Assembly: GCA_043818555.1 (NCBI GenBank)
Contig: JBDRFP010000002.1
Span: 16,774 to 80,773 of the forward strand
DNA: 64,000 nucleotides
From: a bacterium
Lineage (GTDB): Bacteria > Patescibacteriota > Patescibacteriia > UBA9934
Direction of reading: 5' to 3'
A program made the position numbers and the translations under genes. The notes beneath the pieces are model-generated. The model was not told the DNA's origin, made no database searches, and saw nothing but the letters and a program-made list of their open reading frames with translations. Below, piece after piece: positions 22,072 to 61,132 of this stretch. The first letter of the stretch is position 1. Each line of letters opens with the position of its first letter.

Positions 22072-22116
22072 CAGGTTCAACCCTGAAGGTTGCTGCAACC
22101 TTCAGGGTTGAACCTG
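22072..22116. repeat. Perfect palindrome with 20-bp arms, CAGGTTCAACCCTGAAGGTT-GCTGC-AACCTTCAGGGTTGAACCTG, in the divergent lepA / 22181 intergenic region
   Basis: Member of the TTAACCCTGAAGGTT repeat family. Candidate operator or REP-like hairpin. Confidence 0.8.
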
Positions 22117-22752: not shown

Positions 22753-22787
22753 TTAACCCTGAAGGTTGCTGCAACCTTCAGGGTTAA
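22753..22787. repeat. Palindrome TTAACCCTGAAGGTT-GCTGC-AACCTTCAGGGTTAA between convergent genes. Probable bidirectional terminator hairpin.
   Basis: 15-bp perfect arms around the same GCTGC loop as the 22072 copy. Confidence 0.75.
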
Positions 22788-24182: not shown

Positions 24183-24315
24183 AGATGGTTCCCCTGAAGT
24201 AGAGCTGTAAAGGATAAAGCATCAAAATCCTTCACAGCACACTTCAGGGGTAAACCATGAAGTGTGACATCAGCAAAAAGCAAAGACACCAGCGTTTGCT
24301 GATGTCTCTACTTCA

Positions 24316-24389
24316 TGGTTCCCGGGCAGGGATTCGAACCCCGATTTTCTGGACCAGAACCAGACGTCCTGCCGTTAGACTACCCGGGA
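24316..24389 (-). tRNA. tRNA-Gln (anticodon CUG), CCA encoded
   Basis: Hand-folded cloverleaf. U1:A72 acceptor stem TCCCGGG/CCCGGGA, D-arm GTCT/GGAC, anticodon stem TCTGG/CCAGA with loop TTCTGGT, T-arm CGGGG-TTCGAAT-CCCTG, then ACCA. Position 37 is G and the discriminator is A, which is unusual for Gln, so the isotype call is moderate. Promoter TTGACG-N17-TATTAT lies directly upstream and overlaps the dnaX stop. Confidence 0.7.
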
Positions 24390-26018: not shown

Positions 26019-26232
26019 CTTCGAATGATGCCAACGGTAAACTGTGGCATCAAAGTTGTAGAGTTAAATATGATTTTATCTAAAAGGTGGCTCTCAACTC
26101 GGCACTATCAACCCCTTAATATCGAAGTTGTACTACCGAGCATACGGGAAGCATTTTAACATAAGACGGCGAAAAAACAAAAGTAGACAGCTACTGACTA
26201 CTGTCTACTGACTACTGGATGCTAGTTGCCGA

Positions 26233-28764
26233 TCACAAACTCGGCGGAACAGGCTCAGCCGTTGTAGGCTTTGACATTCCAATCCCGGCCCTAATCCTAA
26301 TCTCGCGGTCAACAATATCTCTTGGACGGCCATAAGTCAGGCGCGAGATCTCCTTAAGAGCATCGGCAAGCTTTTTGTTCGGCTCGCCTGGCCATTCCGT
26401 TTTAAGCGTGTAAGGCTTTAACAACTTTTCATTTGCAACAGTTTTTGCATTCCAAGTAAACTTTCCTGTGTTCATTAAGTCGTAAGGGCTAAATGTAGGC
26501 TCAAACACCTTGGCAAGAACCTCAACATCGTCCGGACCAATCCGCGCCGATAACATGCTGCCAACGTTACCAAGCACAGCGTCGCGAATTTCCGTCCTGC
26601 CACTCTCATCAGTCAATTGCCCCATGTACTGATGCGCAAGAATTAGGTTCAACTTGTATTTTCGAGCCTCGGACAAAATAGTCGCAATCGACGGAGTAAT
26701 ATAATTTTGGAACTCGTCAATATAGAGGTAAAAGTCCCTGCGTTCGTCTTCTGGAATGTCTGCCCTGCTAAACGCTGCCATTTGCAATTTGGAAATAAGA
26801 ATGAGCCCGATTAGATTTGAGTTCACTTCGCCGGTTTTACCTTTGGACAAGTTAACTAGCAAAATTTTACCCTCGTCCATAATTTCGCGAAAATTGAAGG
26901 CGCTATTTTTCTGCCCAATAATATTGCGCATCATCTCGTTTTCCACAAACCTACCAACCTTAGAAACCAGGTAGCCCATAGTTTCCGACTTATGGTAATC
27001 GCTCGTTTTTGCCATTTCGTCCTCCCAGAAACTTCGTACAACAGGATCCTTAACGCGCGCAATCCATTTGGCCTGGAACTTATCGTCAGCGATAATCCGC
27101 GGAATTTCGATCAAAGTCCCTGTGTCAGACAAGTCGGCCATCAAGGTCAGCATGAAGTTCCTCATGTAGTGCTCAAACATTGGCCCCATTGTTTCCGGCG
27201 GGAACAGCATATAAAAGATCGAGATCATTTCCTGCACGGCAAAGTCGCGCATGTTCTCATCTGGCGCCTCAAGCATATTCAAGCCCATTGGCCGCTCAAT
27301 GTCTGACGGGTTGAAGTAGATAACATCGTCGATTCTATTCTTTGGGATTTGACCAAGCACAGCATCGGCCAAGTCGCCATGCGGATCAAGCACAGCCACG
27401 CCTTTCCCTGCCTTAATGTCCTGATTAATCAGTGAGCGCAAAAAGACCGATTTACCTGTACCGGTTTTACCAATGATGTAAAAATGTCTTCGGCGGTCAG
27501 AATCCCCAATGAATACATCGGTTCTAACTCCGCGATATTCGTTGTATCCAAGACGCAAACCCTCCTTGGCTATCTCCGGTGGCACAGGCGCCACGCGCGA
27601 TTCCAGCCAGCGAATGTTTGGGGTCTCCGTTGACGCCAAAGGCAAATGCCACAAGCTAGCCATTTCCTCAGTGTTCAAAACAATACTGTACTTTGGATTA
27701 AAGCCGCGGTAAATAAAATCTCGAACTATCCTAGATTTCTTATTTGGAATCTCAGCACTAAAAGCATTGCCGTATTCGTAGATATTAAATTGGTTGAACG
27801 CCTTCAGGGCACCGTCCAAATCTTCCTTAACCGACTGAGCGCTCTTGCCCGACGCTACAACTCGAATATTGGCCTCTATCCCGGCCTTGGTCATCTTGGC
27901 CTCGATGCGCTGCGACATCTGCTCTTCAGCCTGAGTCAGCTTCCTTGGCTCTTCCGGCTTGTCTTTATCTTTCGACTTAAACATGTCTTTCCAGGTCGAT
28001 TTACCCTTCAGCGCATCTTCAAACGACATGCCCTTGTTCATGTTTTTGACCACCTTTTTGCCCAAGCCCCGCCAGCCCGGGCGAGCCGAGCGAACAATGT
28101 ACTGGATTGCCACGCCCTCGCCTTCGCCGATCTTTGAAAGCGCGTTGGTAATTCCATCGAGCGGATCAGACTCACTCTCCTTGTAGGTCTTCACCGGCAA
28201 CATGGACTGACGCTTAAAATTCAAATACCCGCCGGCAACAGTGGAAGTCGGCGTGAACAAGTTATAATCTTCAACCGGCTCAATTGCCGCGTCAGGATAC
28301 TGCGCATGCAACTGCTCCTCAATAAAGTCCCTCATGTACACCGGAACTGTCACATAAAAATCGATCATTTTGTCGATTACGACAATCTCCAAAGCCAACG
28401 AATCGGTCCTGCCAAAAAGCCATGCGCTAAAACCCTTCTGAGCTGTCAAGCCACCGATCGCGCTATAAAATGTCTCGGCAATTGCAATGTCTTCCTGCCA
28501 CTGCGCTATTGTGGCATCGCCCTTAACATCTCCTTCGGTTACAAACTTTGGCACCAAAACTTGCAAAGTGATGTTTTGATACTGCCCGCCGTGAATATTG
28601 CGGTTTTTCTGCAGAAAGTGTCGCAATAGGTAAACCGACCCCACTGCTGCAAAAATTATTAGCGCTACTGTAATCAAAATCGTAAGTGCCTGAAAAGCAT
28701 CAACCTGTGTGAAAGCGGGCTGAGTTGGAGCGCCTACTGTGATTTGGATCAATCCGATGTACAT
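26233..28764 (-). CDS. Fused membrane-domain plus VirD4/TraG/TrwB-like P-loop ATPase (type IV coupling-protein-like), 843 aa
   Basis: The N-terminal 400 aa are homologous to the 560-aa protein at 51759..53441 (LHAQYPDAAIEPVEDY versus LYAQYPEAQMLEVEDY). The C-terminal ATPase is homologous to 49518..51635 (RRRHFYIIGKTGTGKS, LDPHGDLA). Start set to ATG 28764. The track N-terminus MGIHWELIVGHWSL comes from reading through a conserved leader. Confidence 0.75.
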   Translation of the reverse strand: MYIGLIQITVGAPTQPAFTQVDAFQALTILITVALIIFAAVGSVYLLRHFLQKNRNIHGGQYQNITLQVLVPKFVTEGDVKGDATIAQWQEDIAIAETFYSAIGGLTAQKGFSAWLFGRTDSLALEIVVIDKMIDFYVTVPVYMRDFIEEQLHAQYPDAAIEPVEDYNLFTPTSTVAGGYLNFKRQSMLPVKTYKESESDPLDGITNALSKIGEGEGVAIQYIVRSARPGWRGLGKKVVKNMNKGMSFEDALKGKSTWKDMFKSKDKDKPEEPRKLTQAEEQMSQRIEAKMTKAGIEANIRVVASGKSAQSVKEDLDGALKAFNQFNIYEYGNAFSAEIPNKKSRIVRDFIYRGFNPKYSIVLNTEEMASLWHLPLASTETPNIRWLESRVAPVPPEIAKEGLRLGYNEYRGVRTDVFIGDSDRRRHFYIIGKTGTGKSVFLRSLINQDIKAGKGVAVLDPHGDLADAVLGQIPKNRIDDVIYFNPSDIERPMGLNMLEAPDENMRDFAVQEMISIFYMLFPPETMGPMFEHYMRNFMLTLMADLSDTGTLIEIPRIIADDKFQAKWIARVKDPVVRSFWEDEMAKTSDYHKSETMGYLVSKVGRFVENEMMRNIIGQKNSAFNFREIMDEGKILLVNLSKGKTGEVNSNLIGLILISKLQMAAFSRADIPEDERRDFYLYIDEFQNYITPSIATILSEARKYKLNLILAHQYMGQLTDESGRTEIRDAVLGNVGSMLSARIGPDDVEVLAKVFEPTFSPYDLMNTGKFTWNAKTVANEKLLKPYTLKTEWPGEPNKKLADALKEISRLTYGRPRDIVDREIRIRAGIGMSKPTTAEPVPPSL

Positions 28765-28794
28765 GCTACTAAATAGGCAATCTTGAAGTGACAC

Positions 28795-28881
28795 TAATGA
28801 CCAATGCCCAACTATCAATTCCCAATGAATCCCCAATATCCAACCCCTAATTGGTTATTGGGTACTTGTGAATTGGTCATT
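28795..28881. repeat. CCAAT-box-rich leader element copy A, inverted-repeat bounded (TAATGACCAATG ... GAATTGGTCATT). It contains a 43-nt block identical to copy B.
   Basis: taatgaccaatgcccaactatcaattcccaatgaatccccaat is identical at 28795-28837 and 51642-51684. Confidence 0.8.
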
Positions 28882-29358
28882 CTACTGTTTCTCGATATAA
28901 TTCAAAACCTTGTCTGTCCTAATCTTCGCCTCCTGCTCTAAGAAAAACTTATTCACACCCGGAATCATTTTTAGCCAATCGCTAATAAGCTTTAATACTT
29001 TTCGAGCCGTAATTTTGCCCTTATCAACCATTTCTTTGATGGCCGCAGCGACTTCCTCACCCCTTTGTTTGAAAGCTGGCCTTCTATCTGCCGGAAGCGC
29101 AAGGAAAATATCGGTAAGGTCATCGGCAAGAATCTCTTCAATGTCTTCGGTGACTTTATCTTTCTCTGGCCTTATCGATGACGGCTGAGCAGTCGGCGTC
29201 TCCGCGACCTCGACAACCGGCGCTTCTTTTTTCTCTTTTACCTCTTTCACTTTTTTCACCTCTTCCACCTCCGCAAGCTCTTTCACCTCCCCAACCTCAA
29301 CAACTTCCGGCTTTTCCGAAAGTGCTTCTTTTTTCTTTGGCTTCATTGCATCTGCCAT
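28882..29358 (-). CDS. Hypothetical Lys/Glu-rich protein (158 aa)
   Basis: Low-complexity KE-rich N-terminal half (VKELAEVEEVKKVKEVKEKKE) and a structured C-terminal part. Confidence 0.55.
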   Translation of the reverse strand: MADAMKPKKKEALSEKPEVVEVGEVKELAEVEEVKKVKEVKEKKEAPVVEVAETPTAQPSSIRPEKDKVTEDIEEILADDLTDIFLALPADRRPAFKQRGEEVAAAIKEMVDKGKITARKVLKLISDWLKMIPGVNKFFLEQEAKIRTDKVLNYIEKQ

Positions 29359-29386: not shown

Positions 29387-29416
29387 AACCCTAAAGGTTT
29401 CTGAACCTTTAGGGTT
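29387..29416. repeat. Variant palindrome AACCCTAAAGGTT-TCTG-AACCTTTAGGGTT downstream of cysS. Terminator-like.
   Basis: 13-bp arms. Variant of the same family with TAAAGG in place of TGAAGG. Confidence 0.7.
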
Positions 29417-29418
29417 GT

Positions 29419-30804: not shown

Positions 30805-30924
30805 AGCGGTGTGCGAGAGTTAGTAGGAAGTAGGTAGTAGGAAGTAGGTTTGGATGCAGGTATTATAGCCGAGTTTTACGTAAAAGTTAAGGTTTCAAAG
30901 GTTTCAAGGGTCGCAAAGGTTTCA

Positions 30925-32042: not shown

Positions 32043-32136
32043 GCTGTCGCGGGGTGTTACAAACCTACAAAATTCAACCCAAAAACCGGGTGGCAGATCC
32101 CGGTTTTATCTAATCCTACTGGCTACTGGCTGCTGT

Positions 32137-32982
32137 CTACTGACTACTTTCATTAACTGGCGGCTGACTGCTGTACATGCCCTGCCCGCGCTCGATTGGC
32201 GGCTTTGGGAATCGTGGTTTTTCAAATACAGGCTTTGGTTCTCCTTCAACATGCTCAGGCGGTACAAAATCTTTTGGCAAATCCTCAGGCCGTACGAAAT
32301 CATCCGGCAACTTTGGAGGCGCTCCAAACATGTGCATCTGCGGCATTATCGCCTGCCTTTCTTCCGGAGTCAAATCAGCCTCGTTAATCTTCTCCTGTAG
32401 CGCCTGCATTTTTTCATCAATTTCCCCAGGCGATGGTCTGCGGTCAATATTATTGACAAATACGGTTTCAAACAGATGGTTGTAACGAAGATTCTGCGCT
32501 TGCAAACGGTCAATTAACCCTCTTCGAAATTCAAGATCGTCCCTGGCGCGAATCAGCTCATCAACAGTAACATCCAGCTCCTCGGCGATCTTCTCAAGAT
32601 GCCCCGGACCCAACCGCTCTTCGCGCATCATCACCTCGCCCTCAGCAATTCGGCGCTCCATCATGCGCGCATGAAACTCCGCAGCGCCCTCTGGGGAACG
32701 AGGCAACAACGCCTCTACAGCTTCAATCCCCCGCTTGAACGGATGCAGAAAATGACCTTGCGTGACTTCCGGACTTGCGTACGCATAACTCCCCATGCCC
32801 ATGGTCACCAACACGACTACCAGAGCCACTGGCATTGCAAGCGCGCGCTTGAACGAAGGCCTGTTTGCCGGATATTCGCGGCCAAACTCATCGCCAAGCT
32901 CGCTTGCAAGAGCGTTCTTAAATCCACGCTCAGGCTTTCCGGCCTTTTTAATTTCTTTTAAGTTTCGTTTGATTTCTTTCAT
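32137..32982 (-). CDS. Putative anti-sigma factor (single-pass membrane protein downstream of the ECF sigma gene)
   Basis: 281 aa with one TM helix (AMPVALVVVLVTMGMGSYAYA). Positioned immediately after the sigma factor gene. Pro-rich C-terminus. Confidence 0.45.
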   Translation of the reverse strand: MKEIKRNLKEIKKAGKPERGFKNALASELGDEFGREYPANRPSFKRALAMPVALVVVLVTMGMGSYAYASPEVTQGHFLHPFKRGIEAVEALLPRSPEGAAEFHARMMERRIAEGEVMMREERLGPGHLEKIAEELDVTVDELIRARDDLEFRRGLIDRLQAQNLRYNHLFETVFVNNIDRRPSPGEIDEKMQALQEKINEADLTPEERQAIMPQMHMFGAPPKLPDDFVRPEDLPKDFVPPEHVEGEPKPVFEKPRFPKPPIERGQGMYSSQPPVNESSQ

Positions 32983-33797: not shown

Positions 33798-33866
33798 GGG
33801 GGTAATCGGATCGCGAAGGGGTTAATCGTAAACAAGAGTTCACAGTTAACAGTTCACAGTTCAGCG
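33798..33866. repeat. GGGGGTAATCGGATCGCGAAGGGGTTAATCG plus GTTCACAGTTAACAGTTCACAGTTCA heptad element, copy 1 (upstream of the ECF sigma gene)
   Basis: Near-identical to the element at 35453..35567. On the gene strand it reads as tandem TGAACTG heptads. Confidence 0.75.
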
Positions 33867-33959
33867 ACTTGCAATTTTCTACTTATGACTTGAAACATTT
33901 GACTTTAGACTTTCCGACTTTAGACTAAATTAAACCCGGCCGTAACGACCGGGCTAGAA

Positions 33960-35876: not shown

Positions 35877-35965
35877 GTCATTGCGAGGAGCCCTGCAACT
35901 CGGCGACGAAGCAATCTACGCGCTAGATCGCTTCGCTAAACGACAAGCAGCCACTCGCGATGACG
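35877..35965. repeat. 89-bp nested-palindrome element, copy A (outer arms GTCATTGCGAG/CTCGCGATGAC, inner arms CGAAGCAATCTA/TAGATCGCTTCG), downstream of dnaJ
   Basis: About 85% identical to the copy at 38360..38448. Candidate structured RNA or complex terminator. Confidence 0.8.
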
Positions 35966-36045
35966 AAAAACTATTTTTCTCGCGTAAATCCAATCCCTCA
36001 ACTAACTTATTCTCCATCTTACTCCGATCGTCCTAAGACGGTAAA

Positions 36046-38359: not shown

Positions 38360-38448
38360 GTCATTGCGAGGAGCTCAGAAACTCGGCGACGAAGCAATCT
38401 AACGAGTAGATTGCTTCGCTAAACGACAAACGACCACTCGCAATGACG
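38360..38448. repeat. 89-bp nested-palindrome element, copy B, directly downstream of dnaK
   Basis: GTCATTGCGAGGAGCTCAGAAACTCGGCGACGAAGCAATCTAACGAGTAGATTGCTTCGCTAAACGACAAACGACCACTCGCAATGACG. Confidence 0.8.
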
Positions 38449-38456
38449 AATTAAAT

Positions 38457-40384: not shown

Positions 40385-40465
40385 TACGAATGTTTATTTC
40401 CCAGCCTGCGGAGTTTTATTCCGGCTTGCCGAGTTTTATTCCTTAAAGCTTAGATTTATTGTCGA
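40385..40465. repeat. Four phased TTTATT(G/C) units (about 21-bp period) upstream of dnaK
   Basis: tgtttatttcc / agttttattcc / agttttattcc / gatttattgtc. Confidence 0.55.
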
Positions 40466-40490
40466 ATAGGTCGTATGGGTCCTATAGGTC

Positions 40491-41030
40491 CTATCCTGAC
40501 CCTTGATCTTCTGTGACCTGATTCACAATTACCATAGCTGGTCGCAAAACCCCCTTTCCAAGCGTCCAGCCTTTTTGCACAACTTCCAAAATCGCCCCAT
40601 CAGCAGCATCTTTTTCATTCCTCATACCAACCGCTTCATGCAAATTCGGATCAAATTTCCCTGTACTACTAATCTCATGCACTCTATGAAGTTCGAAAAC
40701 ATGTTCAAGTTGACTATGTGCACAAGCGACCCCCTTTAGCCAATTTTCGATCTCAGCTCGCTTGGCTTTGTCGAGCGCTGATAAATCCGGCTGATGACAC
40801 TCTGTCTGTTCCAAGGCATCCATTGCATTAAGTAGTTCAAGAAAAATATCAGATTCGTAACGATACAAAGATTTAAACACCCGGCTTTCAGTATCGCGCT
40901 TTAGGTTCTCATAGTCAGCCAACGCGCGCTTCCAGCCATCCAGATACTCTGCACACTTGGCCTCGAGTTCCTGATCGACTTCTACGCTTTCTATGTCTTC
41001 TACGTTTTTTACATCTTTCTTCTTACTCAT
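40491..41030 (-). CDS. grpE: Nucleotide exchange factor GrpE
   Basis: 179 aa. C-terminal GWTLGKGVLRPAMVIV is the GrpE signature. Overlaps the hrcA stop by 4 nt. Confidence 0.85.
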   Translation of the reverse strand: MSKKKDVKNVEDIESVEVDQELEAKCAEYLDGWKRALADYENLKRDTESRVFKSLYRYESDIFLELLNAMDALEQTECHQPDLSALDKAKRAEIENWLKGVACAHSQLEHVFELHRVHEISSTGKFDPNLHEAVGMRNEKDAADGAILEVVQKGWTLGKGVLRPAMVIVNQVTEDQGSG

Positions 41031-41728
41031 AATTCTTCATCTAATAACTTCTTAGCTTCGCGTAGCAACTTCATGTTTCTCCCATAATCCATACGAAGCG
41101 GGCCAACTAAGCCCATAATTCCTGTAAATCCTCCAGGCATTTTATATTTTACAAGCATCGTTGTCATTTGACTGCCAAACGGACTTTGCTCGCCGATCCA
41201 GACGCTAACATCTCTATCGACACGCTCAAAAACATCATTTAAAACATCGTCAAACTTGTCGATAATGCCAGAGAGCTCGCGCAAAGTGTCCACATTGCCA
41301 AACTCGGGCTTATCGAAAAGATTTGATATTCCAGTGTAATAATTTTGATTAGAGTCCATTGATGAAAACGCGGTTTCGCCTGAAAGCTCAACAAGACATT
41401 TGGCGATTTTGCGAACAATGTCGCGCGGGTCACCAACGTGCTGGCGAGCTTCTACGAGTGGAGCGCGCGGCCGCATCGATCCGGCTGGCTGCATAAACTG
41501 CTCAACATAAAGTCGAAAGCCTTCCTCGGTTGGCACGCGCCCGGCAGAAGTGTGCGGTTGGCGGAGCAGTCCGAAATCCTCGAGCGCAACCATTGTATTT
41601 CGTACCGTAGCCGATGAACACCCAAGGCTAAACTTGTTAACTAAAATTTGCGAAGCAACCGGCTGTGCTGTTTTTACATAATGCTCAATTATGGCTGAAA
41701 GTATTTGTGACTGTCTGTCGGAAAGCAT
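41027..41728 (-). CDS. hrcA: Heat-inducible transcription repressor HrcA
   Basis: N-terminal wHTH (LSDRQSQILSAIIEHYVKTAQPVASQIL). CIRCE operator upstream. Start set to the internal Met. Confidence 0.85.
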   Translation of the reverse strand: MLSDRQSQILSAIIEHYVKTAQPVASQILVNKFSLGCSSATVRNTMVALEDFGLLRQPHTSAGRVPTEEGFRLYVEQFMQPAGSMRPRAPLVEARQHVGDPRDIVRKIAKCLVELSGETAFSSMDSNQNYYTGISNLFDKPEFGNVDTLRELSGIIDKFDDVLNDVFERVDRDVSVWIGEQSPFGSQMTTMLVKYKMPGGFTGIMGLVGPLRMDYGRNMKLLREAKKLLDEEL

Positions 41729-41739
41729 AAGACAAATTT

Positions 41740-41850
41740 CCAATTCACAAGCACCCAATCCCCAATGAATTCCCAATGTCCAATCTCCAATTGGTCATTG
41801 GTAATTGGATATTCATTGTATATTGGCTAGTTGGTCATTGGACATTACTC
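41740..41850. repeat. CCAAT-box-rich element copy C (shares CCCAATGAAT(T/C)CCCAAT and CTTGTGAATTGG with the two T4CP-gene leaders), between CIRCE and the hrcA start
   Basis: caattcacaagcacccaatccccaatgaattcccaatgtccaatctccaattggtcattggtaattgg. Confidence 0.7.
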
Positions 41851-41855
41851 GATCG

Positions 41856-41882
41856 TTAGCAGTCAGTATTATAGACTGCTAA
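41856..41882. promoter_or_regulatory. CIRCE-like operator (TTAGCAGTC-N9-GACTGCTAA) upstream of hrcA-grpE-dnaK
   Basis: 9-bp inverted repeat with a 9-nt spacer, one-position variant of the consensus TTAGCACTC-N9-GAGTGCTAA. Confidence 0.8.
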
Positions 41883-42067
41883 GTTTGAACCGTCAAGTTT
41901 TTAGACCTACAGACTACAGATTTTTTTGGATTTACAGATCGAAAAACTCGTACTTCATTCTGTATATCTGTAAGCAATCAGTAGTCTGTAGGAAATAAAA
42001 AATCCCCTCAGCAATAAGCTTCGGGGACCAGACACTCTTCGTCAAGACTCCTAGAAAGAGGGATGCC

Positions 42068-45226: not shown

Positions 45227-45327
45227 GGGAGTTCGTTACAGACCTACAAACTGTACAGACTTACAGACTGATTGCGTATTTTTTGATTGTCGGTTCGTAG
45301 GTTCGTATAGTCTGTAGTTCTGTAACG

Positions 45328-45639: not shown

Positions 45640-45808
45640 AAAATCCTCCTGGTTAATTGATGAGGATATTATATCACAGATTGCGGAGGAAGTACTAAGT
45701 AGTAAGTAGTAAGTAGGCGAGAGCTATAGGTCTTATAGGTCCTATGCGACCTATCCGACCCCGACGACTAGCCTCGCAGAGGCCCAGCTCCCCCGGATCC
45801 AATTCCGG

Positions 45809-46477: not shown

Positions 46478-46612
46478 TTAACCCTCAGGGTTAAACCTTC
46501 AGGGTTAAACCTTCAGGGTTAAGAGTGTAATCTTGCTAAAATTAGCCAAGCCCATGCTTAAATGGTGGTCAAAATGTATTGTTAACCTTCAGGGTTAAAC
46601 CTTCAGGGTTAA
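46478..46612. repeat. Array of AACCTTCAGGGTTAA units (three tandem copies, a 53-bp unique insert, then two tandem copies) downstream of the HD-domain gene
   Basis: ccctcagggttaaaccttcagggttaaaccttcagggttaag...gttaaccttcagggttaaaccttcagggttaaaa. Confidence 0.8.
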
Positions 46613-46643
46613 AAATCCGCCCCGAGTTAACGGAGCGGATAGG

Positions 46644-48779: not shown

Positions 48780-48871
48780 GCAAAAATTCTAAATTCGAAA
48801 TCCTAAATTCTAAATAAGCTCAAAATTATAAATTCGAATTTTGGATTTATTTAGAGTTTAGAGCTTTGGAT

Positions 48872-49528
48872 TTAGAGTTTCTCAGCAACCCAGTTCACTA
48901 CGTAGTCGAACAACTCAGGGTCGTTTTCAAACATAGTTGTACCATGGCCAATTCCTGACTTTTTAACCAGCTCGACCTGATCAGGCTTTAGCTCTCCGAG
49001 CTTCAATATTGACTTAAACGATGTTTCATCTTCCTCGCTTGCAACTAAAAGCACGCGCTGTTCGTCGGCAAGCTTACCGATCTTGTCATCAGTTGTAACT
49101 CCTCGATAATCTACCCCAGGCGAAAGCGCAACTGCGGCCGGCATTCTGGCCTCCACGGCCATCTGAATTGCTAAATTTGCTCCAATTGACGCCCCAACAA
49201 CTACCGTTTTTTCAACTACTGCTCCTCGACGTTTAAGCTCCTCCCACGCCGCGCGCGCATCCAAAATCTTCGCCTGCTGCTCGGCCTCAGTAAACTCCTT
49301 GTACCCGCCAGGACCACCTTCGCTGGCACCGTGCCCTCGCTCGTCAATAGCAATCGATGCCACTCCACGCCCTGCAAGCGCAGCGGCAAACCCAGCCCAG
49401 CTCTCCTTAGTGGCCGGCATCATATGCAAAAGGATCGCGTATTTTTCACCTTCAGCAGGGTAAAAATCAGCCGCGATCGTCTTGCCGTCTTTGGTTGTGA
49501 GTCTTATCTGCTCCATGCTAATCACCAA
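48872..49528 (-). CDS. Alpha/beta-hydrolase fold protein
   Basis: 218 aa. Nucleophile elbow GASIG and an HGxxM-type C-terminal motif. Confidence 0.6.
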   Translation of the reverse strand: MVISMEQIRLTTKDGKTIAADFYPAEGEKYAILLHMMPATKESWAGFAAALAGRGVASIAIDERGHGASEGGPGGYKEFTEAEQQAKILDARAAWEELKRRGAVVEKTVVVGASIGANLAIQMAVEARMPAAVALSPGVDYRGVTTDDKIGKLADEQRVLLVASEEDETSFKSILKLGELKPDQVELVKKSGIGHGTTMFENDPELFDYVVNWVAEKL

Positions 49529-51635
49529 AAGACAAAATTTCGTTCGGCCTCACGCTTTGCGCGCCGGTAATAGCCGACCCCCTGTCGTCAGTCCTTTCCC
49601 GATCACTGGCTCCACTAGCCCCACTAGCTCCTTTAGCTCCACTGGCTCCTCCCCGATCACTAGCCCCTTCACGATCGCCAGCAGATCTCTTTTTGTTTCT
49701 ATTCCTTCTTTTCCGCTTCCTCGGAACCTGCCGTTGATCATCCTGCCTACTCTCATCAGCTCGATCCCTAGCTCCTTCGCGATCACTAGCTCCTTCGCGA
49801 TCACTAGCTCCGCTAGCCCTGCTAGCCCTACTAGCTCCTTCGCGATCATTCTCTCCTTCTTCTACTTTCTTCTTCAACAAATCACCAGCCTTAATTTCCG
49901 GCTCCGTTTCCTCTTTTATCTCAACTATTTCACTTTCTTTCACCTCTTTCGCTTCTATCGCCTTTTTCGCCTCTGCCTCCTGACCTTTAGCCCTACTAGC
50001 CCAATTAGCCCCTCCCCGATCACCAAGCGCGCTCAACCCAATTTCCTCCCCAACCTTTTTCTCAATAACCTCGCCCTCCTCTACTTTTGGCGGCCTATCA
50101 ACAACTGTTTTCTCTTTACGGTCGTCAGGCTTCTGCTTCCTTCGATTTTTTGACTTCTCGCGCTCTTCTTTAATAATCGGTACACAATCTTCGCAATAAA
50201 TCGGCCGTTCGCGATCAAGCTGAACAGGCAACTTAAACACCTTACTGCAACGCGTGCAGGTGTACTCATGCGAAAATCGTTCCTGTTTTACAGCCTTTTT
50301 TAGATCTTTCGCAGCTTTCATTTCTTTTTCCAAATCAACATCATCTCCAAACCCGCTCCACTCTGCCACATGCTTTTCAATAGCGACCCGATCGCCGGCA
50401 AAGCGCTCGCGCGACTGGTCGATTACCTTTTGCTCGCTTCCAGTTCTGACAGCAATAGGATGCAGCGTTACGGCAGAAAACGGCTGGCTTGTGATTCCGT
50501 CGATCATCAACTTTACATAAACCTGAAACTTGGCAAGGTTGACCAAATCCTGCGGAATAAACCTTGGCATAAACTCATCCTCCATAAACTGAGCGTCAGG
50601 CGAGCCAACACGAAAACTGATCAGCGTACCAATGTTACCAAACACGGCATCGCGGACTTCTTCGCTGAGCTGAGCAATAAACTGGTGAGCCATCACAAGA
50701 TTCAAACGGTACTTTCGAGCCTCGCTCAAGATCGCAGCAAAAGATTCGTTTGCAAAGTTTTGAAATTCGTCAACATAAACATAAAAGTCCTGTCGTTCGC
50801 TTTCCGGCATGTCAACGCGCTCCATTGCAGCCATCTGAATTTTGGTGATTATCATTCCGCCGAGGAGCCGCATGGCATCTTCACCAATCCGGCCCTTGGA
50901 CAAGTTCACAATAAAAATCATCTGATCGTCCATTATTCTGCGCGGATTGATTGACGACTTTGCCTGGGCTACAATATTTCGAATAATAGATGCGGAAAGA
51001 AACTGACCGACCTTGTTTTGAATAGGCGCCACAGCTTCGGACGCAAATTTGCTCTGGTAGGACTCAAATTCTTTAATCCAGAACTGCTTAATTATCGGGT
51101 CCTTAACATTGCCGATTATAATTTTTCTGTAATCAGCGTCAGAAAGTAGCCTGTTGATTCCCAAAAGCGTACTGCCAGGCGTTTCAAGAAGAGCCAAAAT
51201 AGTATTATTCAAAATGTACTCCATTCGGGCACTCCAGACATTTTCCCAAATCTTTTTGAACACGCTCATCATTCCGGCTGCAACAAGATGGCGCTGAGTG
51301 TCGTCGACCGATTCGAGAATGTTAAAACCGACCGGATAATTCAAATCTGCCGGGTTAAAGTAGACAACATCGTTAATTCTCCAACTTGGGATGTAGTCAA
51401 GCAGGCGCTCAGCAGTGTCGCCATGCGGGTCAATGTAGCAGCAGCCGTGACCGGCATAAATGTCTGCAAGAATCATGTTTTCGAGCAGAGTCGTTTTTCC
51501 AACACCGGTTTTTCCAATTATATACATGTGCCGACGGCGGTCGTCGGTTTTAATCCCAAATTTCCGCATTTGATTGCGGAAGTTCGTCTTTGCAAAATAG
51601 ATGACGTCGTTTTCGTGATCGTGTTCGTATCTCAT
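49518..51635 (-). CDS. VirD4/TraG/TrwB-like P-loop ATPase (type IV coupling-protein-like / T4SS DNA-binding-domain family), 705 aa
   Basis: Walker A YIIGKTGVGKTT, DPHGD, Walker B-like ..VDEFQNF. C-terminal Cx2C...Cx2C zinc ribbon, then a highly charged tail with tandem repeats (REGASRASRASGASDREGASDREGARD; DNA about 49560-49860). Start set to ATG 51635. Confidence 0.75.
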   Translation of the reverse strand: MRYEHDHENDVIYFAKTNFRNQMRKFGIKTDDRRRHMYIIGKTGVGKTTLLENMILADIYAGHGCCYIDPHGDTAERLLDYIPSWRINDVVYFNPADLNYPVGFNILESVDDTQRHLVAAGMMSVFKKIWENVWSARMEYILNNTILALLETPGSTLLGINRLLSDADYRKIIIGNVKDPIIKQFWIKEFESYQSKFASEAVAPIQNKVGQFLSASIIRNIVAQAKSSINPRRIMDDQMIFIVNLSKGRIGEDAMRLLGGMIITKIQMAAMERVDMPESERQDFYVYVDEFQNFANESFAAILSEARKYRLNLVMAHQFIAQLSEEVRDAVFGNIGTLISFRVGSPDAQFMEDEFMPRFIPQDLVNLAKFQVYVKLMIDGITSQPFSAVTLHPIAVRTGSEQKVIDQSRERFAGDRVAIEKHVAEWSGFGDDVDLEKEMKAAKDLKKAVKQERFSHEYTCTRCSKVFKLPVQLDRERPIYCEDCVPIIKEEREKSKNRRKQKPDDRKEKTVVDRPPKVEEGEVIEKKVGEEIGLSALGDRGGANWASRAKGQEAEAKKAIEAKEVKESEIVEIKEETEPEIKAGDLLKKKVEEGENDREGASRASRASGASDREGASDREGARDRADESRQDDQRQVPRKRKRRNRNKKRSAGDREGASDRGGASGAKGASGASGASDRERTDDRGSAITGAQSVRPNEILSFGD

Positions 51636-51641
51636 ATTCGA

Positions 51642-51760
51642 TAATGACCAATGCCCAACTATCAATTCCCAATGAATCCCCAATCCCCCAATTCGATCTT
51701 CAATTGGTTATTGTGCATTGGATATTCATTGGTCATTGGGTTTTTGTGAATTGGTCATTT
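51642..51760. repeat. CCAAT-box-rich leader element copy B (TAATGACCAATG...CATTGGTCATTGG...GAATTGGTCATTT), between the 560-aa gene and the ATPase gene
   Basis: 43-nt block identical to copy A. Internal inverted repeats. Confidence 0.8.
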
Positions 51761-53441
51761 AAATTGGTAGATTCTCAGGTCCTGATTCTTGACCGATTGG
51801 TTCATCAGCTAAATCTAATCCCGGCGGCAACGGAGCCGGCATGCCAGCTTTTGGCATGTATTCGCCTTCTACGATTTGATTAACCCCCGCGTCATACGAT
51901 TCAACCTCCGCGCTTTTCGAAATAACCCCCTCATCTTTTGTCAAACCCCCTTCAACTCCTAAACTCGGCGTTGGCACAACAAGCGGTTTTGGCTCAGGGA
52001 GTTTTTTATGCACTGTAACGCCTGCGGCAGCCTGCACATCCGGCGATACACGGTCCAAATTCGGCAAGGTAGGATCGTCGGCCCCTGCAAATTCAAGCTC
52101 GCTAGGGGCTTCCGCGCGCCGCGCGCCAATACTTGTCAACACCGGCGTTCGAGCGTCAGCGGCCGGGAAGTGGAACAAAGTCGCAAGTTCCTCACAGTTC
52201 AAAATGTACGGTGTTGCGCCAGCGCCAAACGAACGATTCTTATATCGCTTAATCAGCCGGCGCTGTTTCATTGGCATCTGCCAGAGCATGTAAAAATAAT
52301 CATCCTTTGGAGTTGAAGGAATGTGCAAACCAAATTTATTCATTCCCAAGTGACCGTACTGGTGGAAAATACCTTTAATCATTGAAGCCGCGGTCCCCTT
52401 GCGGAAAACATCTTTTTTACCACAATAAACAACCCTGATCTTTGTGAGCCAGCCGATTGATCCAGTTTTCCGCGAAACCGAATCAATTAGTTCTTTTTCG
52501 TCAGGCGTAATCCTAAACATTGCCCAGTTATCTGCCGATTTTTCTTCTGCTGAGGCCGCGCCCATCCCAATTGCCTGGCTCAAGAGTTCCTGAGGCACCC
52601 AGCCGACAGCTTCTGCCAAAAAGCTCTTTTTCTTTAGCTCTTCCTTCCCAAACTTGCTATTAACAAACTTTTCGCCTTCTTTAATCCAACCCTGACTGTC
52701 CGGTTGCATAACCAAAAGCTGAATCCAAAAATGCTCACCGGGACGCATTTTCCCCAAAATCTCAATTACTCCAAGAAGCGGATCTTTAAACCGCTGATCT
52801 TTTTCGCCCTGATGTTCGAACAGATCCCAGGTTTTGATTGGAACATACTGTGGCTTCTTTAGCATCATCTCCGTACCAAAACAATCGTATTCCTCATGCG
52901 GGTAATCGTTAGGGATCAGATCAACATAGTCCTCCACTTCGAGCATCTGAGCTTCCGGATATTGGGCGTAGAGCGATGCCTCCAAGAGGTCGCGATACTT
53001 GTCGGTTGTTCGAATGTAGAATTTAATGTGCCCACCGTTGCTTACAATTTCAAAAGCAAAATATGATTGGAACTTTCCCCAAAACCACTTTTCCTTCCAT
53101 GTGATTGACGATTTTGATCCGGCAAGGTTGGTAAAAAAGTTCGCCATTCCCATTGGGGTTTGGATGGCGTCCTGCGGCACACTGATTTCGTACAGGGTCC
53201 ATTTAAACTTTTCCCAGTACTGAACCTGCTTGCGGAAAAGCCAAACTTCTGAGAAGCCCCAAATGGCCACAGCAAAAATCGGCACCCACCCAATTGCCAA
53301 AAGGATGTGCGCGCCCATTACCTCCACAGGCGTTGTGGCAAGGTACTGTTCGATTGCAGCCGGAAGAGCTATAAACACTCCGATCATAATGAGATTATTA
53401 TAGCATATTGCGAGAGTAGACAGTAGGGACGCTGTATGCAA
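51759..53441 (-). CDS. Membrane-anchored partner protein of the T4CP-like ATPase (560 aa), homologous to the N-terminal half of 26233..28764
   Basis: N-terminal TM helices and a conserved LYAQYPEAQMLEVEDY block. Precedes the ATPase gene on the same strand. Confidence 0.65.
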   Translation of the reverse strand: MHTASLLSTLAICYNNLIMIGVFIALPAAIEQYLATTPVEVMGAHILLAIGWVPIFAVAIWGFSEVWLFRKQVQYWEKFKWTLYEISVPQDAIQTPMGMANFFTNLAGSKSSITWKEKWFWGKFQSYFAFEIVSNGGHIKFYIRTTDKYRDLLEASLYAQYPEAQMLEVEDYVDLIPNDYPHEEYDCFGTEMMLKKPQYVPIKTWDLFEHQGEKDQRFKDPLLGVIEILGKMRPGEHFWIQLLVMQPDSQGWIKEGEKFVNSKFGKEELKKKSFLAEAVGWVPQELLSQAIGMGAASAEEKSADNWAMFRITPDEKELIDSVSRKTGSIGWLTKIRVVYCGKKDVFRKGTAASMIKGIFHQYGHLGMNKFGLHIPSTPKDDYFYMLWQMPMKQRRLIKRYKNRSFGAGATPYILNCEELATLFHFPAADARTPVLTSIGARRAEAPSELEFAGADDPTLPNLDRVSPDVQAAAGVTVHKKLPEPKPLVVPTPSLGVEGGLTKDEGVISKSAEVESYDAGVNQIVEGEYMPKAGMPAPLPPGLDLADEPIGQESGPENLPI

Positions 53442-56828: not shown

Positions 56829-57165
56829 ATTCGCTAGTCAGATCGTTTTAACATATTAAACGATTTTAATGTTTTGAACGTTAATGATAAGTGGCCCTAT
56901 TTTAGATTAAATAGCCAAAATTGGCAAGTGGATAGTCGAGAAACGAGAGTAGTCAGTAGACAGTAGACGGTAGACGGTAGACGGTCGAAGGCCTATAATA
57001 AACCTCGTCTATCGGTCTGTAGTTCTGTAGAGTCTGTAGGTCTGTAACGACCTCCAACTTGACACAACACCCCAAATCGGGTTAGATTACCACCTCTGCA
57101 AGGTCCAAACCCAAACAGAGACCCACCCCACCCTCCTTCGCAACTCTCCTGGAGCAAAAACACGG

Positions 57166-58890: not shown

Positions 58891-58948
58891 GAAAATACCG
58901 AGGGCTTATTTGTTAATTCAATTGAATTAGCAAATAAGTAATCTTGGG

Positions 58949-59859: not shown

Positions 59860-59889
59860 AACCTTCAAGGTTCAGAAACCTTGAAGGTT
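59860..59889. repeat. Variant palindrome AACCTTCAAGGTT-CAGA-AACCTTGAAGGTT downstream of 59937..60284
   Basis: 13-bp arms. Member of the TTAACCCTGAAGGTT family. Confidence 0.7.
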
Positions 59890-59936
59890 AAGATACATTC
59901 GCTACAGACAGCCTCGTAGAAATGCTGAGGTAATAT

Positions 59937-61041: not shown

Positions 61042-61080
61042 ATATTATTTACTTAGGGTATATTCCATAACGCTCAACGT

Positions 61081-61097
61081 TTAACCCCAGGGGTTAA
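61081..61097. repeat. Small palindrome TTAACCCC-A-GGGGTTAA
   Basis: Same core as the TTAACCC/GGGTTAA family. Confidence 0.5.
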
Positions 61098-61132
61098 GGC
61101 ATCGGGGACTAACAATCCAAGCGGTAATTTTT

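What the first reader, a model, noticed from the sequence alone, without database searches (positions are those of the whole stretch)
41740..41882. hrcA carries both a CIRCE operator and a copy of the CCAAT-box element found upstream of the T4CP-like genes
A CIRCE variant (TTAGCAGTC-N9-GACTGCTAA, 41856-41882) lies upstream of hrcA-grpE-dnaK as expected. Between it and the hrcA start lies a roughly 110-bp element rich in CCAAT/ATTGG boxes that shares CCCAATGAAT(T/C)CCCAAT and CTTGTGAATTGG with the leaders of the two T4CP-like genes. A shared cis element linking the heat-shock regulon and the DNA-translocation ATPase genes would imply co-regulation, or else a promoter-associated mobile mini-element.
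Basis: seen in the sequence. Interest (0 to 1): 0.55.

Follow-up and report, generated by a model that had tools for sequence, protein, structure and literature searches.

The report
Palindromic repeat inserted in hrcA leader
The "CCAAT-box element" is a roughly 90-120 bp hairpin-forming repeat that this candidate-phylum bacterium gained at three gene junctions where the related genomes examined do not carry it, so it is more likely an inserted small repeat than a shared heat-shock/DNA-transfer control switch.

Summary
A CIRCE variant (41856-41882) sits in a TTGACG-17-TATAAT promoter upstream of hrcA-grpE-dnaK. Between it and the hrcA ATG lies a 113-nt CCAAT/ATTGG-rich imperfect palindrome (41735-41847). 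It has two homologues, each just upstream of a T4CP-like gene.

The co-regulation reading is not supported:
- The nearest relatives (Uhrbacteria-like Patescibacteria) keep the same promoter/CIRCE but have only 5-8 nt between CIRCE and ATG.
- At the two T4CP junctions, four of six relatives have the genes overlapping by ATGA.
- The hrcA copy is inverted relative to the other two.
- No copy carries a sense-strand promoter.
- All three are transcribed spacers ending 6-30 nt before a start codon.

The element is best read as a new, lineage-specific small palindromic dispersed repeat (MITE/ERIC-like). Its stems are conserved and its internal loops vary freely. No target-site duplication or transposase was found.

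It is one of many hairpins and short-period tandem repeats that fill this genome's intergenic DNA (26 arrays observed against about 1 expected). Another relative carries an unrelated periodic hairpin at the same DUF8128/T4CP junction, so a generic post-transcriptional role is not excluded.

The parts
41735..41847 (-). Copy B of the CCAAT/ATTGG imperfect palindrome (113 nt). It lies in the hrcA 5' leader, 8 nt after CIRCE and 6 nt before the ATG. Its homologous orientation is opposite to copies A and C.
   Evidence: nhmmer E = 3.7e-32 on the minus strand against 1.3e-18 on the plus strand. Pairwise score 90 for B-/C+ against 69 for B+/C+. Arms 41735-41790 and 41791-41846 are 71% complementary. 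RNA MFE is -42 kcal/mol, z = -3.9. GC is 37% against 48.6% for the window.
28795..28881 (+). Copy A (87 nt, with an internal deletion in the right arm). It lies between the stop codon of gene 28882-29358 and the start of T4CP-like gene 1.
   Evidence: nhmmer E = 1.6e-22. The left arm is 43/43 identical to copy C. The stop codon TAG (28882-28884) abuts the element, and the ATG is 30 nt beyond the other end.
51642..51759 (+). Copy C (118 nt, full length). It lies between the stop codon of the DUF8128-homologue gene and the start of T4CP-like gene 2.
   Evidence: nhmmer E = 2.4e-32. RNA MFE is -42.3 kcal/mol, z = -3.9. The stop codon TAA (51759-51761) touches the element end, and the ATG is 6 nt beyond the other end.
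41856..41882 (.). CIRCE operator variant TTAGCAGTC-N9-GACTGCTAA. Its 9-nt spacer holds the -10 box.
   Evidence: The same variant sits at the same place in relatives L003, L045 and L046; L048 has the canonical TTAGCACTC.
41868..41896 (-). hrcA promoter TTGACG-17-TATAAT (11 of 12 consensus matches).
   Evidence: The promoter is conserved in L003, L045, L046 and L048.
41027..41728 (-). hrcA (233 aa), the first gene of hrcA-grpE-dnaK.
   Evidence: Pfam PF01628 and PF03444. It is 100% identical to NCBI MAG protein ABIA47_00465, and the closest homologues listed are also about 230 aa.
26233..28764 (-). T4CP-like gene 1 (843 aa; the ATPase domain starts near residue 412), downstream of copy A.
   Evidence: Pfam DUF87, TrwB_AAD_bind and T4SS-DNA_transf. 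It is 65% identical to the L046 homologue.
49518..51635 (-). T4CP-like gene 2 (705 aa), downstream of copy C.
   Evidence: Pfam TrwB_AAD_bind. The start MRYEHDHEN matches MKYEHDHEN in L045. It is a paralogue of gene 1, 42% identical in the ATPase domain only.
51759..53441 (-). Gene upstream of copy C, a homologue of the DUF8128 protein of relatives. It ends ...NLPI*, as in L045.
   Evidence: tblastn 52% identity to L045 774-2372, which carries PF26449. C-terminus.
28882..29358 (-). Gene upstream of copy A (158 aa). It is 8 residues shorter at the C-terminus than its homologues.
   Evidence: Removing 28796-28884 would extend it by SVTSRLPI*, which is 8 aa. This is suggestive only.
41906..41992 (.). 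A second, unrelated periodic-arm hairpin (CTACAGA-type heptamers). It lies between the upstream gene's terminator-like hairpin and the hrcA -35 box.
   Evidence: MFE about -35 kcal/mol on either strand. It is absent from the 58-nt spacer of L003.

Best explanation
The CCAAT-box element is a lineage-specific, non-coding, AT-rich dispersed repeat of about 90-120 bp whose two halves form a long imperfect palindrome. It resembles a MITE or ERIC element. It was inserted into three very short, transcribed gene junctions of this Uhrbacteria-like Patescibacteria genome: the hrcA leader just downstream of the promoter/CIRCE operator, and the spacers in front of the two paralogous T4CP-like ATPase genes. 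HrcA control of hrcA-grpE-dnaK still runs through the conserved CIRCE that overlaps the -10 box, and the element is not part of that circuit. Because every copy is co-transcribed with the downstream gene, it forms a stable stem-loop in the mRNA. The loop base brings the preceding stop codon (or the 5' end of the transcript) to within 6-30 nt of the next start codon. Its likely effect is generic and post-transcriptional: on mRNA stability or processing, or on how upstream and downstream translation are coupled. It is not a dedicated regulatory link between heat shock and DNA translocation. Shown here: three homologous copies, the hairpin, their positions, their absence at the corresponding junctions of relatives, and an intact promoter/CIRCE. 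Inferred: spread by copying (transposition or gene conversion), and any effect on expression.
For: - Copies: there are three and only three in 64 kb.
- Origin of A and C: they share a 43/43 identical arm, yet their flanking genes are either unrelated or only 42% identical paralogues. The copies are therefore not relics of a gene duplication.
- hrcA site in relatives: L003 (HrcA 68% identical) has TTGACG-17-TATAAT with the same CIRCE, then T8 and ATG, in a 58-nt intergenic region. L045 has CIRCE, then TTTGT and ATG.
- T4CP junctions in relatives: the genes overlap by ATGA in L045 (T4CP2) and in L046, L047 and L048 (T4CP1). The T4CP2 start and the C-terminus of its upstream protein are conserved around the insert; at the T4CP1 junction both ends differ from relatives.
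- nhmmer finds no copy in any relative locus.
- Orientation relative to the downstream gene differs: B is inverted.
- The only sense-strand promoter match near a copy is the hrcA promoter, which lies upstream of copy B.
- Hairpin: z is about -3.9 for B and C, with 10-nt terminal inverted repeats AATGACCAAT/ATTGGTCATT.
- B against C: paired columns differ at 5 of 66, including one compensatory pair; unpaired columns differ at 28 of 44.
- GC is 37-39% against 48.6% for the window.
- Genomic context: there are 10 long inverted repeats in the window against 0 in 64 kb from four relatives, and 26 intergenic period 6-9 arrays against 0.93 expected. A different hairpin fills the Ion_trans_2/Na-H exchanger junction, which is 5 nt long in L003.
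- MITE transcripts are known to fold into stable stem-loops and to alter expression of co-transcribed genes through RNase III or RNase E (PMC10969869).
Against: - No convincing target-site duplication. At best there is TA, perfect only for copy C.
- No transposase or RAYT gene was found in the window, and no longer parent element.
- Only three copies could be examined.
- Two of the three copies precede paralogous T4CP-like genes, and all three end 6-30 nt before a start codon that has no Shine-Dalgarno motif. That is more orderly than random insertion would predict.
- A relative (L050) carries a sequence-unrelated periodic hairpin with the same stop-hairpin-6 nt-ATG geometry at the same DUF8128/T4CP2 junction. 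This hints at selection for a hairpin there.
- Stem sequence is conserved rather than covarying, which fits a sequence-specific binder as well as it fits a structure.
Confidence: 0.62

Rival explanations
1. The element is a post-transcriptional control module. The periodic CCAAU/AUUGG hairpin, placed between a stop codon (or the 5' end) and an SD-less start codon, is recognised by an RNA-binding protein or by the ribosome. It sets translation (re)initiation or mRNA half-life of the T4CP-like ATPases and hrcA-grpE-dnaK, and so co-regulates them. This is analogous to what has been proposed for TAACTGA heptamer repeats just upstream of start codons.
For: - All three copies end 6-30 nt before a start codon that lacks an SD motif.
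- The sense-strand RNA folds better than the antisense strand in all three copies, even though B is inverted.
- Stems are conserved while loops drift.
- An independent, unrelated hairpin occupies the same junction with the same geometry in L050.
- Many SD-less genes in this window, and dnaK/dnaJ in relatives, are preceded by short tandem repeats.
- A published precedent proposes a translational role for heptamer repeats that overlap the RBS position (PMC4679880).
Against: - No relative locus contains the element, and four of the six relatives examined at the T4CP junctions have no spacer there at all.
- Other hairpin classes in the window show no sense-strand folding advantage, and G>C composition of the minus strand can explain the advantage seen here.
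- The many unrelated repeat families would each need their own binder.
- Three copies give no statistical power.
Confidence: 0.2
2. The structures are generated in situ and are not mobile. Replication slippage creates short-period (about 7 nt) tandem arrays in intergenic DNA. Intrastrand template switching then copies one arm into an inverted array, so similar CCAAT-based palindromes grow independently at several junctions.
For: - The genome's intergenic DNA is saturated with period 6-9 arrays: 26 against 0.93 expected.
- CCAAT cores are spaced 7 and 11 nt apart.
- Between B and C almost all similarity lies in the repeated cores; unpaired columns are 64% different.
- Sequence-unrelated periodic hairpins occur in L050 and in unrelated metagenome contigs L014, L027 and L030.
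- Heptamers are the commonest long simple-sequence repeat unit in prokaryotes, and this has been attributed to polymerase slippage (Mrazek 2007, as summarised in PMC4679880).
Against: - A and C share 43 consecutive identical bases, including non-core positions, and have the same sharp ends.
- B shares the same order of non-CCAAT blocks (TAATGNCCAATGNCCAACTA, CAATGAAT, GGGTNNTTGTGAATTGG) over its full length. Independent growth would not reproduce this.
Confidence: 0.1
3. The element is a double-stranded DNA binding-site array. A transcription factor or nucleoid protein binds the oppositely oriented CCAAT boxes and represses or activates hrcA and the T4CP-like genes together.
For: The CCAAT/ATTGG cores are the most conserved positions. 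Their dyad arrangement resembles operator arrays.
Against: - Copies A and C lie between cistrons that overlap or abut in relatives and have no sense-strand promoter.
- Copy B lies downstream of the promoter and CIRCE.
- The element is absent from relatives that have identical gene sets.
- A 7-nt spacing puts successive sites on different faces of the helix.
Confidence: 0.05

Closest known systems
Bacterial MITEs such as the neisserial Correia/NEMIS element
   Same: It is small (under 500 bp), non-coding, AT-rich and dispersed in several copies, with terminal inverted repeats. It inserts next to gene starts and is co-transcribed. Its transcript folds into a long stable stem-loop. MITE features and known effects (promoters, IHF sites, RNase III cleavage) are summarised in PMC10969869.
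   Different: No target-site duplication beyond a doubtful TA. No promoter in the element. No partner insertion sequence or transposase seen. The whole element, not just its ends, is an inverted repeat built from 5-bp CCAAT/ATTGG cores at 7- and 11-nt spacing. The host is a Patescibacteria MAG.
ERIC/IRU-type imperfect palindromes of enterobacteria (about 127 bp)
   Same: It is an imperfect palindrome of about 120 bp that lies in transcribed intergenic regions and inside operons. Its presence varies between related genomes, and such elements can change the stability of the host mRNA (ERIC and RNase E: PMC10969869; the general description of ERIC is from my own knowledge).
   Different: Sequence similarity to ERIC was not tested. 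The taxon is different. The periodic core/loop organisation is not a described ERIC feature.
Short-period intergenic tandem repeats: cyanobacterial STRR heptamers, TAACTGA repeats of Beggiatoaceae, LSSRs
   Same: The units are about 7 nt. They are strongly intergenic, often directly upstream of start codons that lack a Shine-Dalgarno site, and sporadic in phylogenetic distribution (PMC4679880). The metagenome scan retrieved many TAATGAC/CAATGAC heptamer arrays of this kind.
   Different: Those are direct tandem arrays of one unit; 169 direct sets against one indirect repeat in the orange Guaymas Maribeggiatoa (BOGUAY) genome. Here a defined element of about 120 nt consists of an array followed by its inverted complement, and it recurs as a whole with fixed ends.
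REP/REPIN elements mobilised by RAYT transposases
   Same: They are palindromic, extragenic, dispersed and lack a target-site duplication. They form hairpins as single-stranded DNA or RNA (PMC3116915).
   Different: REP units are about 20-40 nt and G+C-rich. This element is 87-118 nt with 37-39% GC. No RAYT gene is in the window, and the genome was not otherwise testable.
CIRCE/HrcA operator (for the operator part of the finding)
   Same: It is a 9-nt inverted repeat with a 9-nt spacer that overlaps a sigma-70-type promoter in front of hrcA-grpE-dnaK. An HrcA gene is present.
   Different: There is one symmetric substitution (CAGTC/GACTG instead of CACTC/GAGTG), shared by three relatives. HrcA is a short form of about 233 aa.

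Membership tests
MITE (miniature inverted-repeat transposable element) | Length under 500 bp and no coding capacity for a transposase | tested here: met
   The copies are 87, 113 and 118 nt. They contain no ORF beyond read-through of the downstream gene's frame.
MITE (miniature inverted-repeat transposable element) | Terminal inverted repeats | tested here: met
   AATGACCAAT...ATTGGTCATT is perfect in A and C. In B one of the 10 pairs is a compensatory change and one is a mismatch.
MITE (miniature inverted-repeat transposable element) | Flanking direct repeats (target-site duplication) | tested here: inconclusive
   The best flanking matches are 2-4 nt and differ between copies. TA is possible, but it is exact only for C. 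Direct repeats are known to decay with age (PMC10969869).
MITE (miniature inverted-repeat transposable element) | Several dispersed copies, with empty sites in related genomes | tested here: met
   There are three copies in 64 kb. Empty orthologous sites are seen in L003, L045, L046, L047 and L048.
MITE (miniature inverted-repeat transposable element) | A related autonomous insertion sequence with the same ends that can mobilise it | not testable with these tools
   No transposase domain was found in the ORFs scanned. The rest of the MAG could not be fetched.
MITE (miniature inverted-repeat transposable element) | AT-rich, with a transcript that forms a stable stem-loop | tested here: met
   GC is 37-39% against 48.6% for the window. 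MFE is -30 to -42 kcal/mol; z is -3.9 for B and C and -1.4 for the deleted copy A.
REP/REPIN | Short (about 20-40 nt) G+C-rich palindromic unit, with a RAYT transposase in the genome | tested here: not met
   Unit size and composition do not fit. RAYT was not seen in the window and is not testable genome-wide.
Simple heptamer tandem repeats (STRR / TAACTGA / LSSR type) | Head-to-tail direct copies of a single unit of about 7 nt | tested here: not met
   TRF finds only 2-3 unit runs of period 7 or 11 inside the element. The element is an inverted array with fixed ends that recurs as a whole. The resemblance is partial.
CIRCE/HrcA operator | 9-nt inverted repeat with a 9-nt spacer matching TTAGCACTC-N9-GAGTGCTAA | tested here: met
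   16 of 18 positions match, and the two differences are one symmetric substitution.
CIRCE/HrcA operator | Overlaps a promoter in front of a chaperone operon, with hrcA present | tested here: met
   The -10 box lies in the CIRCE spacer. hrcA-grpE-dnaK lies downstream. The arrangement is conserved in four relatives.
Known structured RNA families (Rfam), including RNA thermometers | Match to a curated covariance model, or sequestration of the SD/AUG | tested here: not met
   No family reaches its gathering score. Only chance hairpin matches to plant miRNA precursors appear. The AUG lies outside the hairpin and there is no SD motif.

The most novel reading that the evidence does not exclude
The CCAAT element may belong to a class, not found in my limited literature searches, of periodic-arm hairpins in Uhrbacteria-like Patescibacteria. 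These hairpins have arms built from tandem units of about 7-8 nt. They settle exactly between a stop codon and the next SD-less start codon (stop, hairpin, about 6 nt, ATG). Sequence-unrelated members have arisen independently at the same DUF8128/T4CP junction in different lineages. On this reading the hairpin is a functional module. It would hold stop and start together so that terminating ribosomes reinitiate across its base, or it would set the stoichiometry or stability of the two cistrons. It would then be a repeat-based substitute for Shine-Dalgarno-driven initiation.
Probability: 0.12. Interest if true: 0.65.

Novelty: new member of a known kind. Interest (0 to 1): 0.33.

Why it matters
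For this finding, the result removes a tempting but unsupported regulatory link between the HrcA heat-shock regulon and the T4CP-like DNA-translocation ATPases. It also fixes the real hrcA control region: a promoter with CIRCE in its spacer, and in relatives a leader that is almost absent.

More broadly, the small, gene-dense genome of a candidate-phylum bacterium turns out to carry a rich set of intergenic hairpins and short-period repeats. These were inserted at junctions that are only 0-8 nt long, or overlapping, in relatives. I found no description of such repeats for Patescibacteria in the literature I could search.

If the stop-hairpin-start geometry proves functional, it would bear on how these organisms initiate translation without Shine-Dalgarno sites. 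In practice, the elements also mislead gene callers, because all three downstream ORFs stay open into the element.

Tried and rejected
- Whole-collection scan of GTDB representative genomes with CAATYCCCAATGAATYCCCAAT gave two unrelated hits: a Planctomycetales coding region and a Phormidium heptamer array. The source genome is therefore not in that set.
- Viral-contig scans: TAATGNCCAATGNCCAACTA gave nothing. ATTGGGTNNTTGTGAATTGG gave 8 hits, all in a phage coding motif (DDWVVVNW) and not the element.
- Metagenome scan with TAATGNCCAATGNCCAACTA gave 33 loci and no true copy. Most were heptamer tandem arrays; three were analogous but non-homologous hairpins.
- Exact-protein look-ups of the window's HrcA, DnaK and P0001 to fetch the rest of the MAG all failed.
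- A T4CP2 homologue search for closer relatives found nothing above 77% identity.
- Rfam at gathering and permissive thresholds gave no real family.
- Test for RNA-level selection through a sense-strand folding advantage: it holds for the three CCAAT copies but not across the other hairpin classes, and it is confounded by G>C skew. I rejected it as evidence.
- Target-site duplication search found nothing consistent.
- No promoter lies inside the elements on the sense strand.
- A terminator role is rejected: no terminator-like site was called at any copy, and I see no clear T-run after the hairpin.
- An RNA thermometer is rejected: the AUG and SD position are not sequestered, and -42 kcal/mol is too stable.
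- The idea that A and C are left over from duplication of the T4CP genes is rejected. The paralogues are only 42% identical, and the flanks are unrelated.
- My first claim that copy A is an in-frame 90-nt insert was wrong. The remnant reading SVTSRLPI* needs removal of 89 nt (28796-28884) and is only one of three frames. I keep it as suggestive only.

Full report
**1. What is at the coordinates**

The window (48.6% GC, with nearly all genes on the minus strand) encodes hrcA (41027-41728, 233 aa), grpE and dnaK in that order on the minus strand. On the sense strand the upstream region reads, in order:
- a terminator-like hairpin belonging to the preceding gene;
- an 87-nt hairpin built from CTACAGA-type heptamers (41906-41992);
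- TTGACG-17-TATAAT (41896-41868; 11 of 12 consensus matches);
- the CIRCE variant TTAGCAGTC-TATAATACT-GACTGCTAA (41856-41882), whose spacer is the -10 box;
- 8 nt of spacer;
- a 113-nt CCAAT/ATTGG-rich segment (41735-41847);
- 6 nt of spacer;
- the ATG.

- The 17-mer occurs three times against 0.04 expected.
- The 12-mer occurs at the same three sites.
- Only these three sites in 64 kb are dense in CCAAT/ATTGG.
- An nhmmer profile finds exactly three copies: A at 28795-28881, B at 41735-41847 and C at 51642-51759, with E = 1e-22 to 1e-32.

**2. Anatomy**

Each copy is a long imperfect palindrome. For B, the arms 41735-41790 and 41791-41846 are 71% complementary with no loop gap. As RNA, copies B and C fold at about -42 kcal/mol (z about -3.9). 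Copy A has lost about 25 nt of one arm and folds less well.

The stem consists of 5-8 bp blocks (CCAAT/ATTGG, CAATGAAT/ATTCATTG) separated by small internal loops. The cores are spaced 7 and 11 nt apart.

The ends are sharp: TAATGACCAATG...GAATTGGTCATT. Similarity between A and C starts and stops exactly there, and their left arms are 43/43 identical.

Copy B aligns end to end with C only when reverse-complemented (score 90 against 69; nhmmer 3.7e-32 against 1.3e-18). Its orientation relative to the downstream gene is therefore opposite to A and C. This also explains why the 12-mer is on the other strand.

Between B and C, paired columns differ at 5 of 66 positions: one compensatory A-T to T-A pair and three G-U/Watson-Crick changes. 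Unpaired columns differ at 28 of 44. The stems are conserved and the loops drift. With so little covariation I cannot tell whether pairing or the core sequence is what is kept.

The copies are AT-rich, at 37-39% GC.

**3. Where the copies sit**

All three lie in transcribed spacers directly in front of a start codon that has no Shine-Dalgarno motif.
- B lies in the hrcA leader.
- A lies between the stop codon of a 158-aa gene (the TAG abuts the element) and T4CP-like gene 1, with the ATG 30 nt beyond.
- C lies between the stop codon of the DUF8128-homologue gene (the TAA touches the element) and T4CP-like gene 2, with the ATG 6 nt beyond.

No sense-strand sigma-70-like site lies in A or C, and the only one near B is the hrcA promoter upstream of it. 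The two T4CP-like proteins are old paralogues, 42% identical in the ATPase domain only. The genes upstream of them are unrelated to each other. The near-identity of A and C is therefore not inherited from a gene duplication.

**4. Relatives**

The window's HrcA is identical to protein ABIA47_00465 of an NCBI MAG labelled only "bacterium". Its homologues are Candidatus Uhrbacteria or "Patescibacteria group" proteins of about 230 aa. Synteny is conserved in relatives: SecDF - DUF8128 - T4CP2 - BacA ... Na/H exchanger - x - hrcA - grpE - dnaK ... dnaJ ... CysS - x - T4CP1.

At the hrcA site:
- The closest relative, L003 (HrcA 68% identical), has a 58-nt intergenic region: TTGACG-17-TATAAT with the same CIRCE variant, then T8 and ATG.
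- L045 has CIRCE, then TTTGT and ATG.
- L048 has the canonical TTAGCACTC CIRCE.
- L046 and L047 carry a different, unrelated leader of about 150 nt.

At the T4CP junctions:
- In L045 the DUF8128 gene and T4CP2 overlap by ATGA.
- In L046, L047 and L048 the small gene and T4CP1 overlap by ATGA.
- The window's T4CP2 still begins MRYEHDHEN (L045: MKYEHDHEN), and its upstream protein still ends NLPI*, as in L045.
- The gene upstream of copy A is 8 residues shorter than its homologues. Removing 28796-28884 would restore exactly 8 codons, SVTSRLPI*. That is one of three possible frames, so it is suggestive only.

No relative locus contains the element. The element is thus an addition specific to this lineage, at three junctions that were ancestrally 0-8 nt long or overlapping. 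From the position of the -10 box I infer that the hrcA leader grew from roughly 13 nt to roughly 133 nt.

**5. The wider pattern**

The CCAAT element is not a singular signal. The window's intergenic DNA (12.5% of bases) holds 26 tandem arrays of period 6-9 nt, against 0.93 expected (maximum 4) in dinucleotide shuffles. It also holds many dispersed short-unit families: CTACTGA, GACTTTA, ATAGGTCCT, AGTTCAC, AACCCTGAAGGTT and 20-nt GTTTATT/GGGGTTAA units.

Several further hairpins have arms made of tandem units: 3361-3440, 13068-13160, 41906-41992, 45227-45327, 48780-48885 and 56948-57050. Long inverted repeats number 10 in the window against 0 in 64 kb from four relatives. The Ion_trans_2/Na-H exchanger junction is 5 nt in L003 and a 101-nt hairpin here.

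Heptamer arrays directly upstream of dnaK and dnaJ also occur in relatives, with different sequences.

The best T4CP2 homologue locus, L050, carries a sequence-unrelated 8-nt-period hairpin at the very same DUF8128/T4CP2 junction: GTTCAAAC.../...GAACACTT. It starts right after the stop codon and ends 6 nt before the ATG. A second hairpin lies one junction upstream. L051 has a plain 54-nt spacer at this junction. Periodic hairpins therefore arise repeatedly in this clade.

**6. Searches elsewhere**

- The 22-mer core is absent from GTDB representative genomes, apart from two unrelated hits.
- The terminal 20-mer pattern finds no true copy in viral or JGI metagenome contigs. It finds heptamer arrays and three analogous hairpins of other sequence.
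- Rfam has nothing.
- No transposase domain was found in the ORFs scanned, and no consistent target-site duplication.
- I found no paper on such repeats in Patescibacteria.
- The nearest descriptions are prokaryotic MITEs (PMC10969869, PMC3184786, PMC2229807) and intergenic heptamer repeats immediately upstream of start codons that lack ribosome-binding sites (PMC4679880).

**7. Interpretation**

The best-supported account is a new, lineage-specific small palindromic dispersed repeat of the MITE/ERIC kind, inserted into transcribed junctions. hrcA regulation rests on the conserved promoter/CIRCE, and the element is an add-on in the leader.

Co-regulation of heat-shock and T4CP-like genes through a shared operator is not supported. 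I keep a minority probability for a generic post-transcriptional role, for two reasons: the orderly stop-hairpin-start geometry, and its independent recurrence in L050. In-situ growth by slippage and template switching can explain the periodic architecture, but it cannot explain the full-length, sharp-ended homology of the three copies.

**8. Verdict**

Novelty is modest: a new family of a known kind, with an unusual periodic build and an undescribed host group. The main value is in correcting the regulatory reading and in flagging the repeat-rich intergenic landscape of this CPR genome.

Noticed in passing
window, all intergenic regions (for example 3004-3048, 1513-1551, 8746-8779, 20144-20196, 26190-26223, 30821-30849, 32115-32148, 33837-33926, 40393-40494, 45690-45760): Intergenic DNA is saturated with short-period tandem repeats. 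There are 26 arrays of period 6-9 nt in 7.76 kb, against 0.93 expected from dinucleotide shuffles. The same units (CTACTGA, GACTTTA, ATAGGTCCT, AGTTCAC) recur at distant loci. Many lie directly upstream of start codons without a Shine-Dalgarno motif; only about 17 of 65 genes have an SD-like motif.
   Followed up: partly
window 3361-3440, 10350-10400, 13068-13160, 41906-41992, 45227-45327, 48780-48885, 56948-57050, 58895-58948: Further long hairpins have arms that are tandem units of 6-8 nt (TTATTGAG, ATGACA, TACAGAC, CTAAATT and others). They are unrelated in sequence to the CCAAT element. The hairpin at 45227-45327 fills a junction that is 5 nt long in relative L003.
   Followed up: partly
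L050 2934-2994 and 1159-1250: The closest T4CP2 relative (Logan SRR22808039) has a different 8-nt-period hairpin at the same DUF8128-stop/T4CP2-start junction, with the same geometry (stop, hairpin, 6 nt, ATG). It has another heptamer-flanked terminator one junction upstream. This is independent recurrence of periodic hairpins.
   Followed up: partly
window 22079-22109 and 22755-22785; also 29387-29417, 46478-46613, 5551-5610, 59860-59893, 61067-61112: A recurrent hairpin, AACCCTGAAGGTT-GCTGC-AACCTTCAGGGTT, occurs at several sites. Two 31-nt copies are 100% identical and flank the plus-strand ORF 22181-22711, which looks like a small cassette. Tandem 14-nt versions occur at 46478-46613.
   Followed up: no
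window 35877-35967 and 38360-38450: A 91-nt repeat (86% identical) with inverted ends GTCATTGCGAG...CTCGCGATGAC lies in the spacers just downstream of the dnaJ and dnaK stop codons. This is a third dispersed palindromic family.
   Followed up: no
window 41856-41882; L003 5964-5990; L045, L046, L048 upstream of hrcA: The CIRCE variant has one symmetric substitution in both half-sites (CAGTC/GACTG). It is shared by three relatives, while L048 keeps the canonical CACTC/GAGTG. In all of them the -10 TATAAT is the CIRCE spacer, and the leader is only 5-8 nt beyond CIRCE, so the mRNAs are nearly leaderless and lack an SD motif.
   Followed up: partly
window 41027-41728: HrcA is only 233 aa, against roughly 340 aa in model bacteria (the latter from my own knowledge). 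There are 3,461 homologues with E <= 1e-10, and almost all of the 120 best listed are 225-260 aa. This appears to be a short Patescibacteria form.
   Followed up: no
L046 9860-10000 and L047 7890-8029: In another relative a different insert of about 150 nt, containing TCAGTA-type repeats, lies between CIRCE and the hrcA ATG. The CIRCE-ATG gap has therefore been invaded more than once.
   Followed up: no
window 41729-41776, 51636-51683, 28765-28836: All three downstream ORFs stay open 48-72 nt into the element, up to TTG codons. Gene callers may therefore place wrong, longer starts. The window's own T4CP2 was not returned as an identical protein in the database search.
   Followed up: no
window 49604-50011: The 3' part of T4CP-like gene 2 contains 9- and 18-nt coding tandem repeats (CACTAGCTC and CGATCACTAGCTCCTTCG). 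This part of the protein has no counterpart in the L045 homologue, where the alignment stops at residue 537 of 705.
   Followed up: no
L014 1877-2007, L027 5261-5404, L030 642-743; L020, L021, L037, L042, L043: Unrelated metagenome contigs (GC 0.37-0.60) carry analogous hairpins whose arms are TAATGAC/CAATGAC-type heptamers, or plain tandem arrays of those heptamers. These resemble cyanobacterial STRR-type repeats and are not homologues of the element.
   Followed up: partly
window 24183-24325: Two strong hairpins of about 75 nt (about -37 to -43 kcal/mol) lie side by side next to tRNA-Gln (24316-24389).
   Followed up: no
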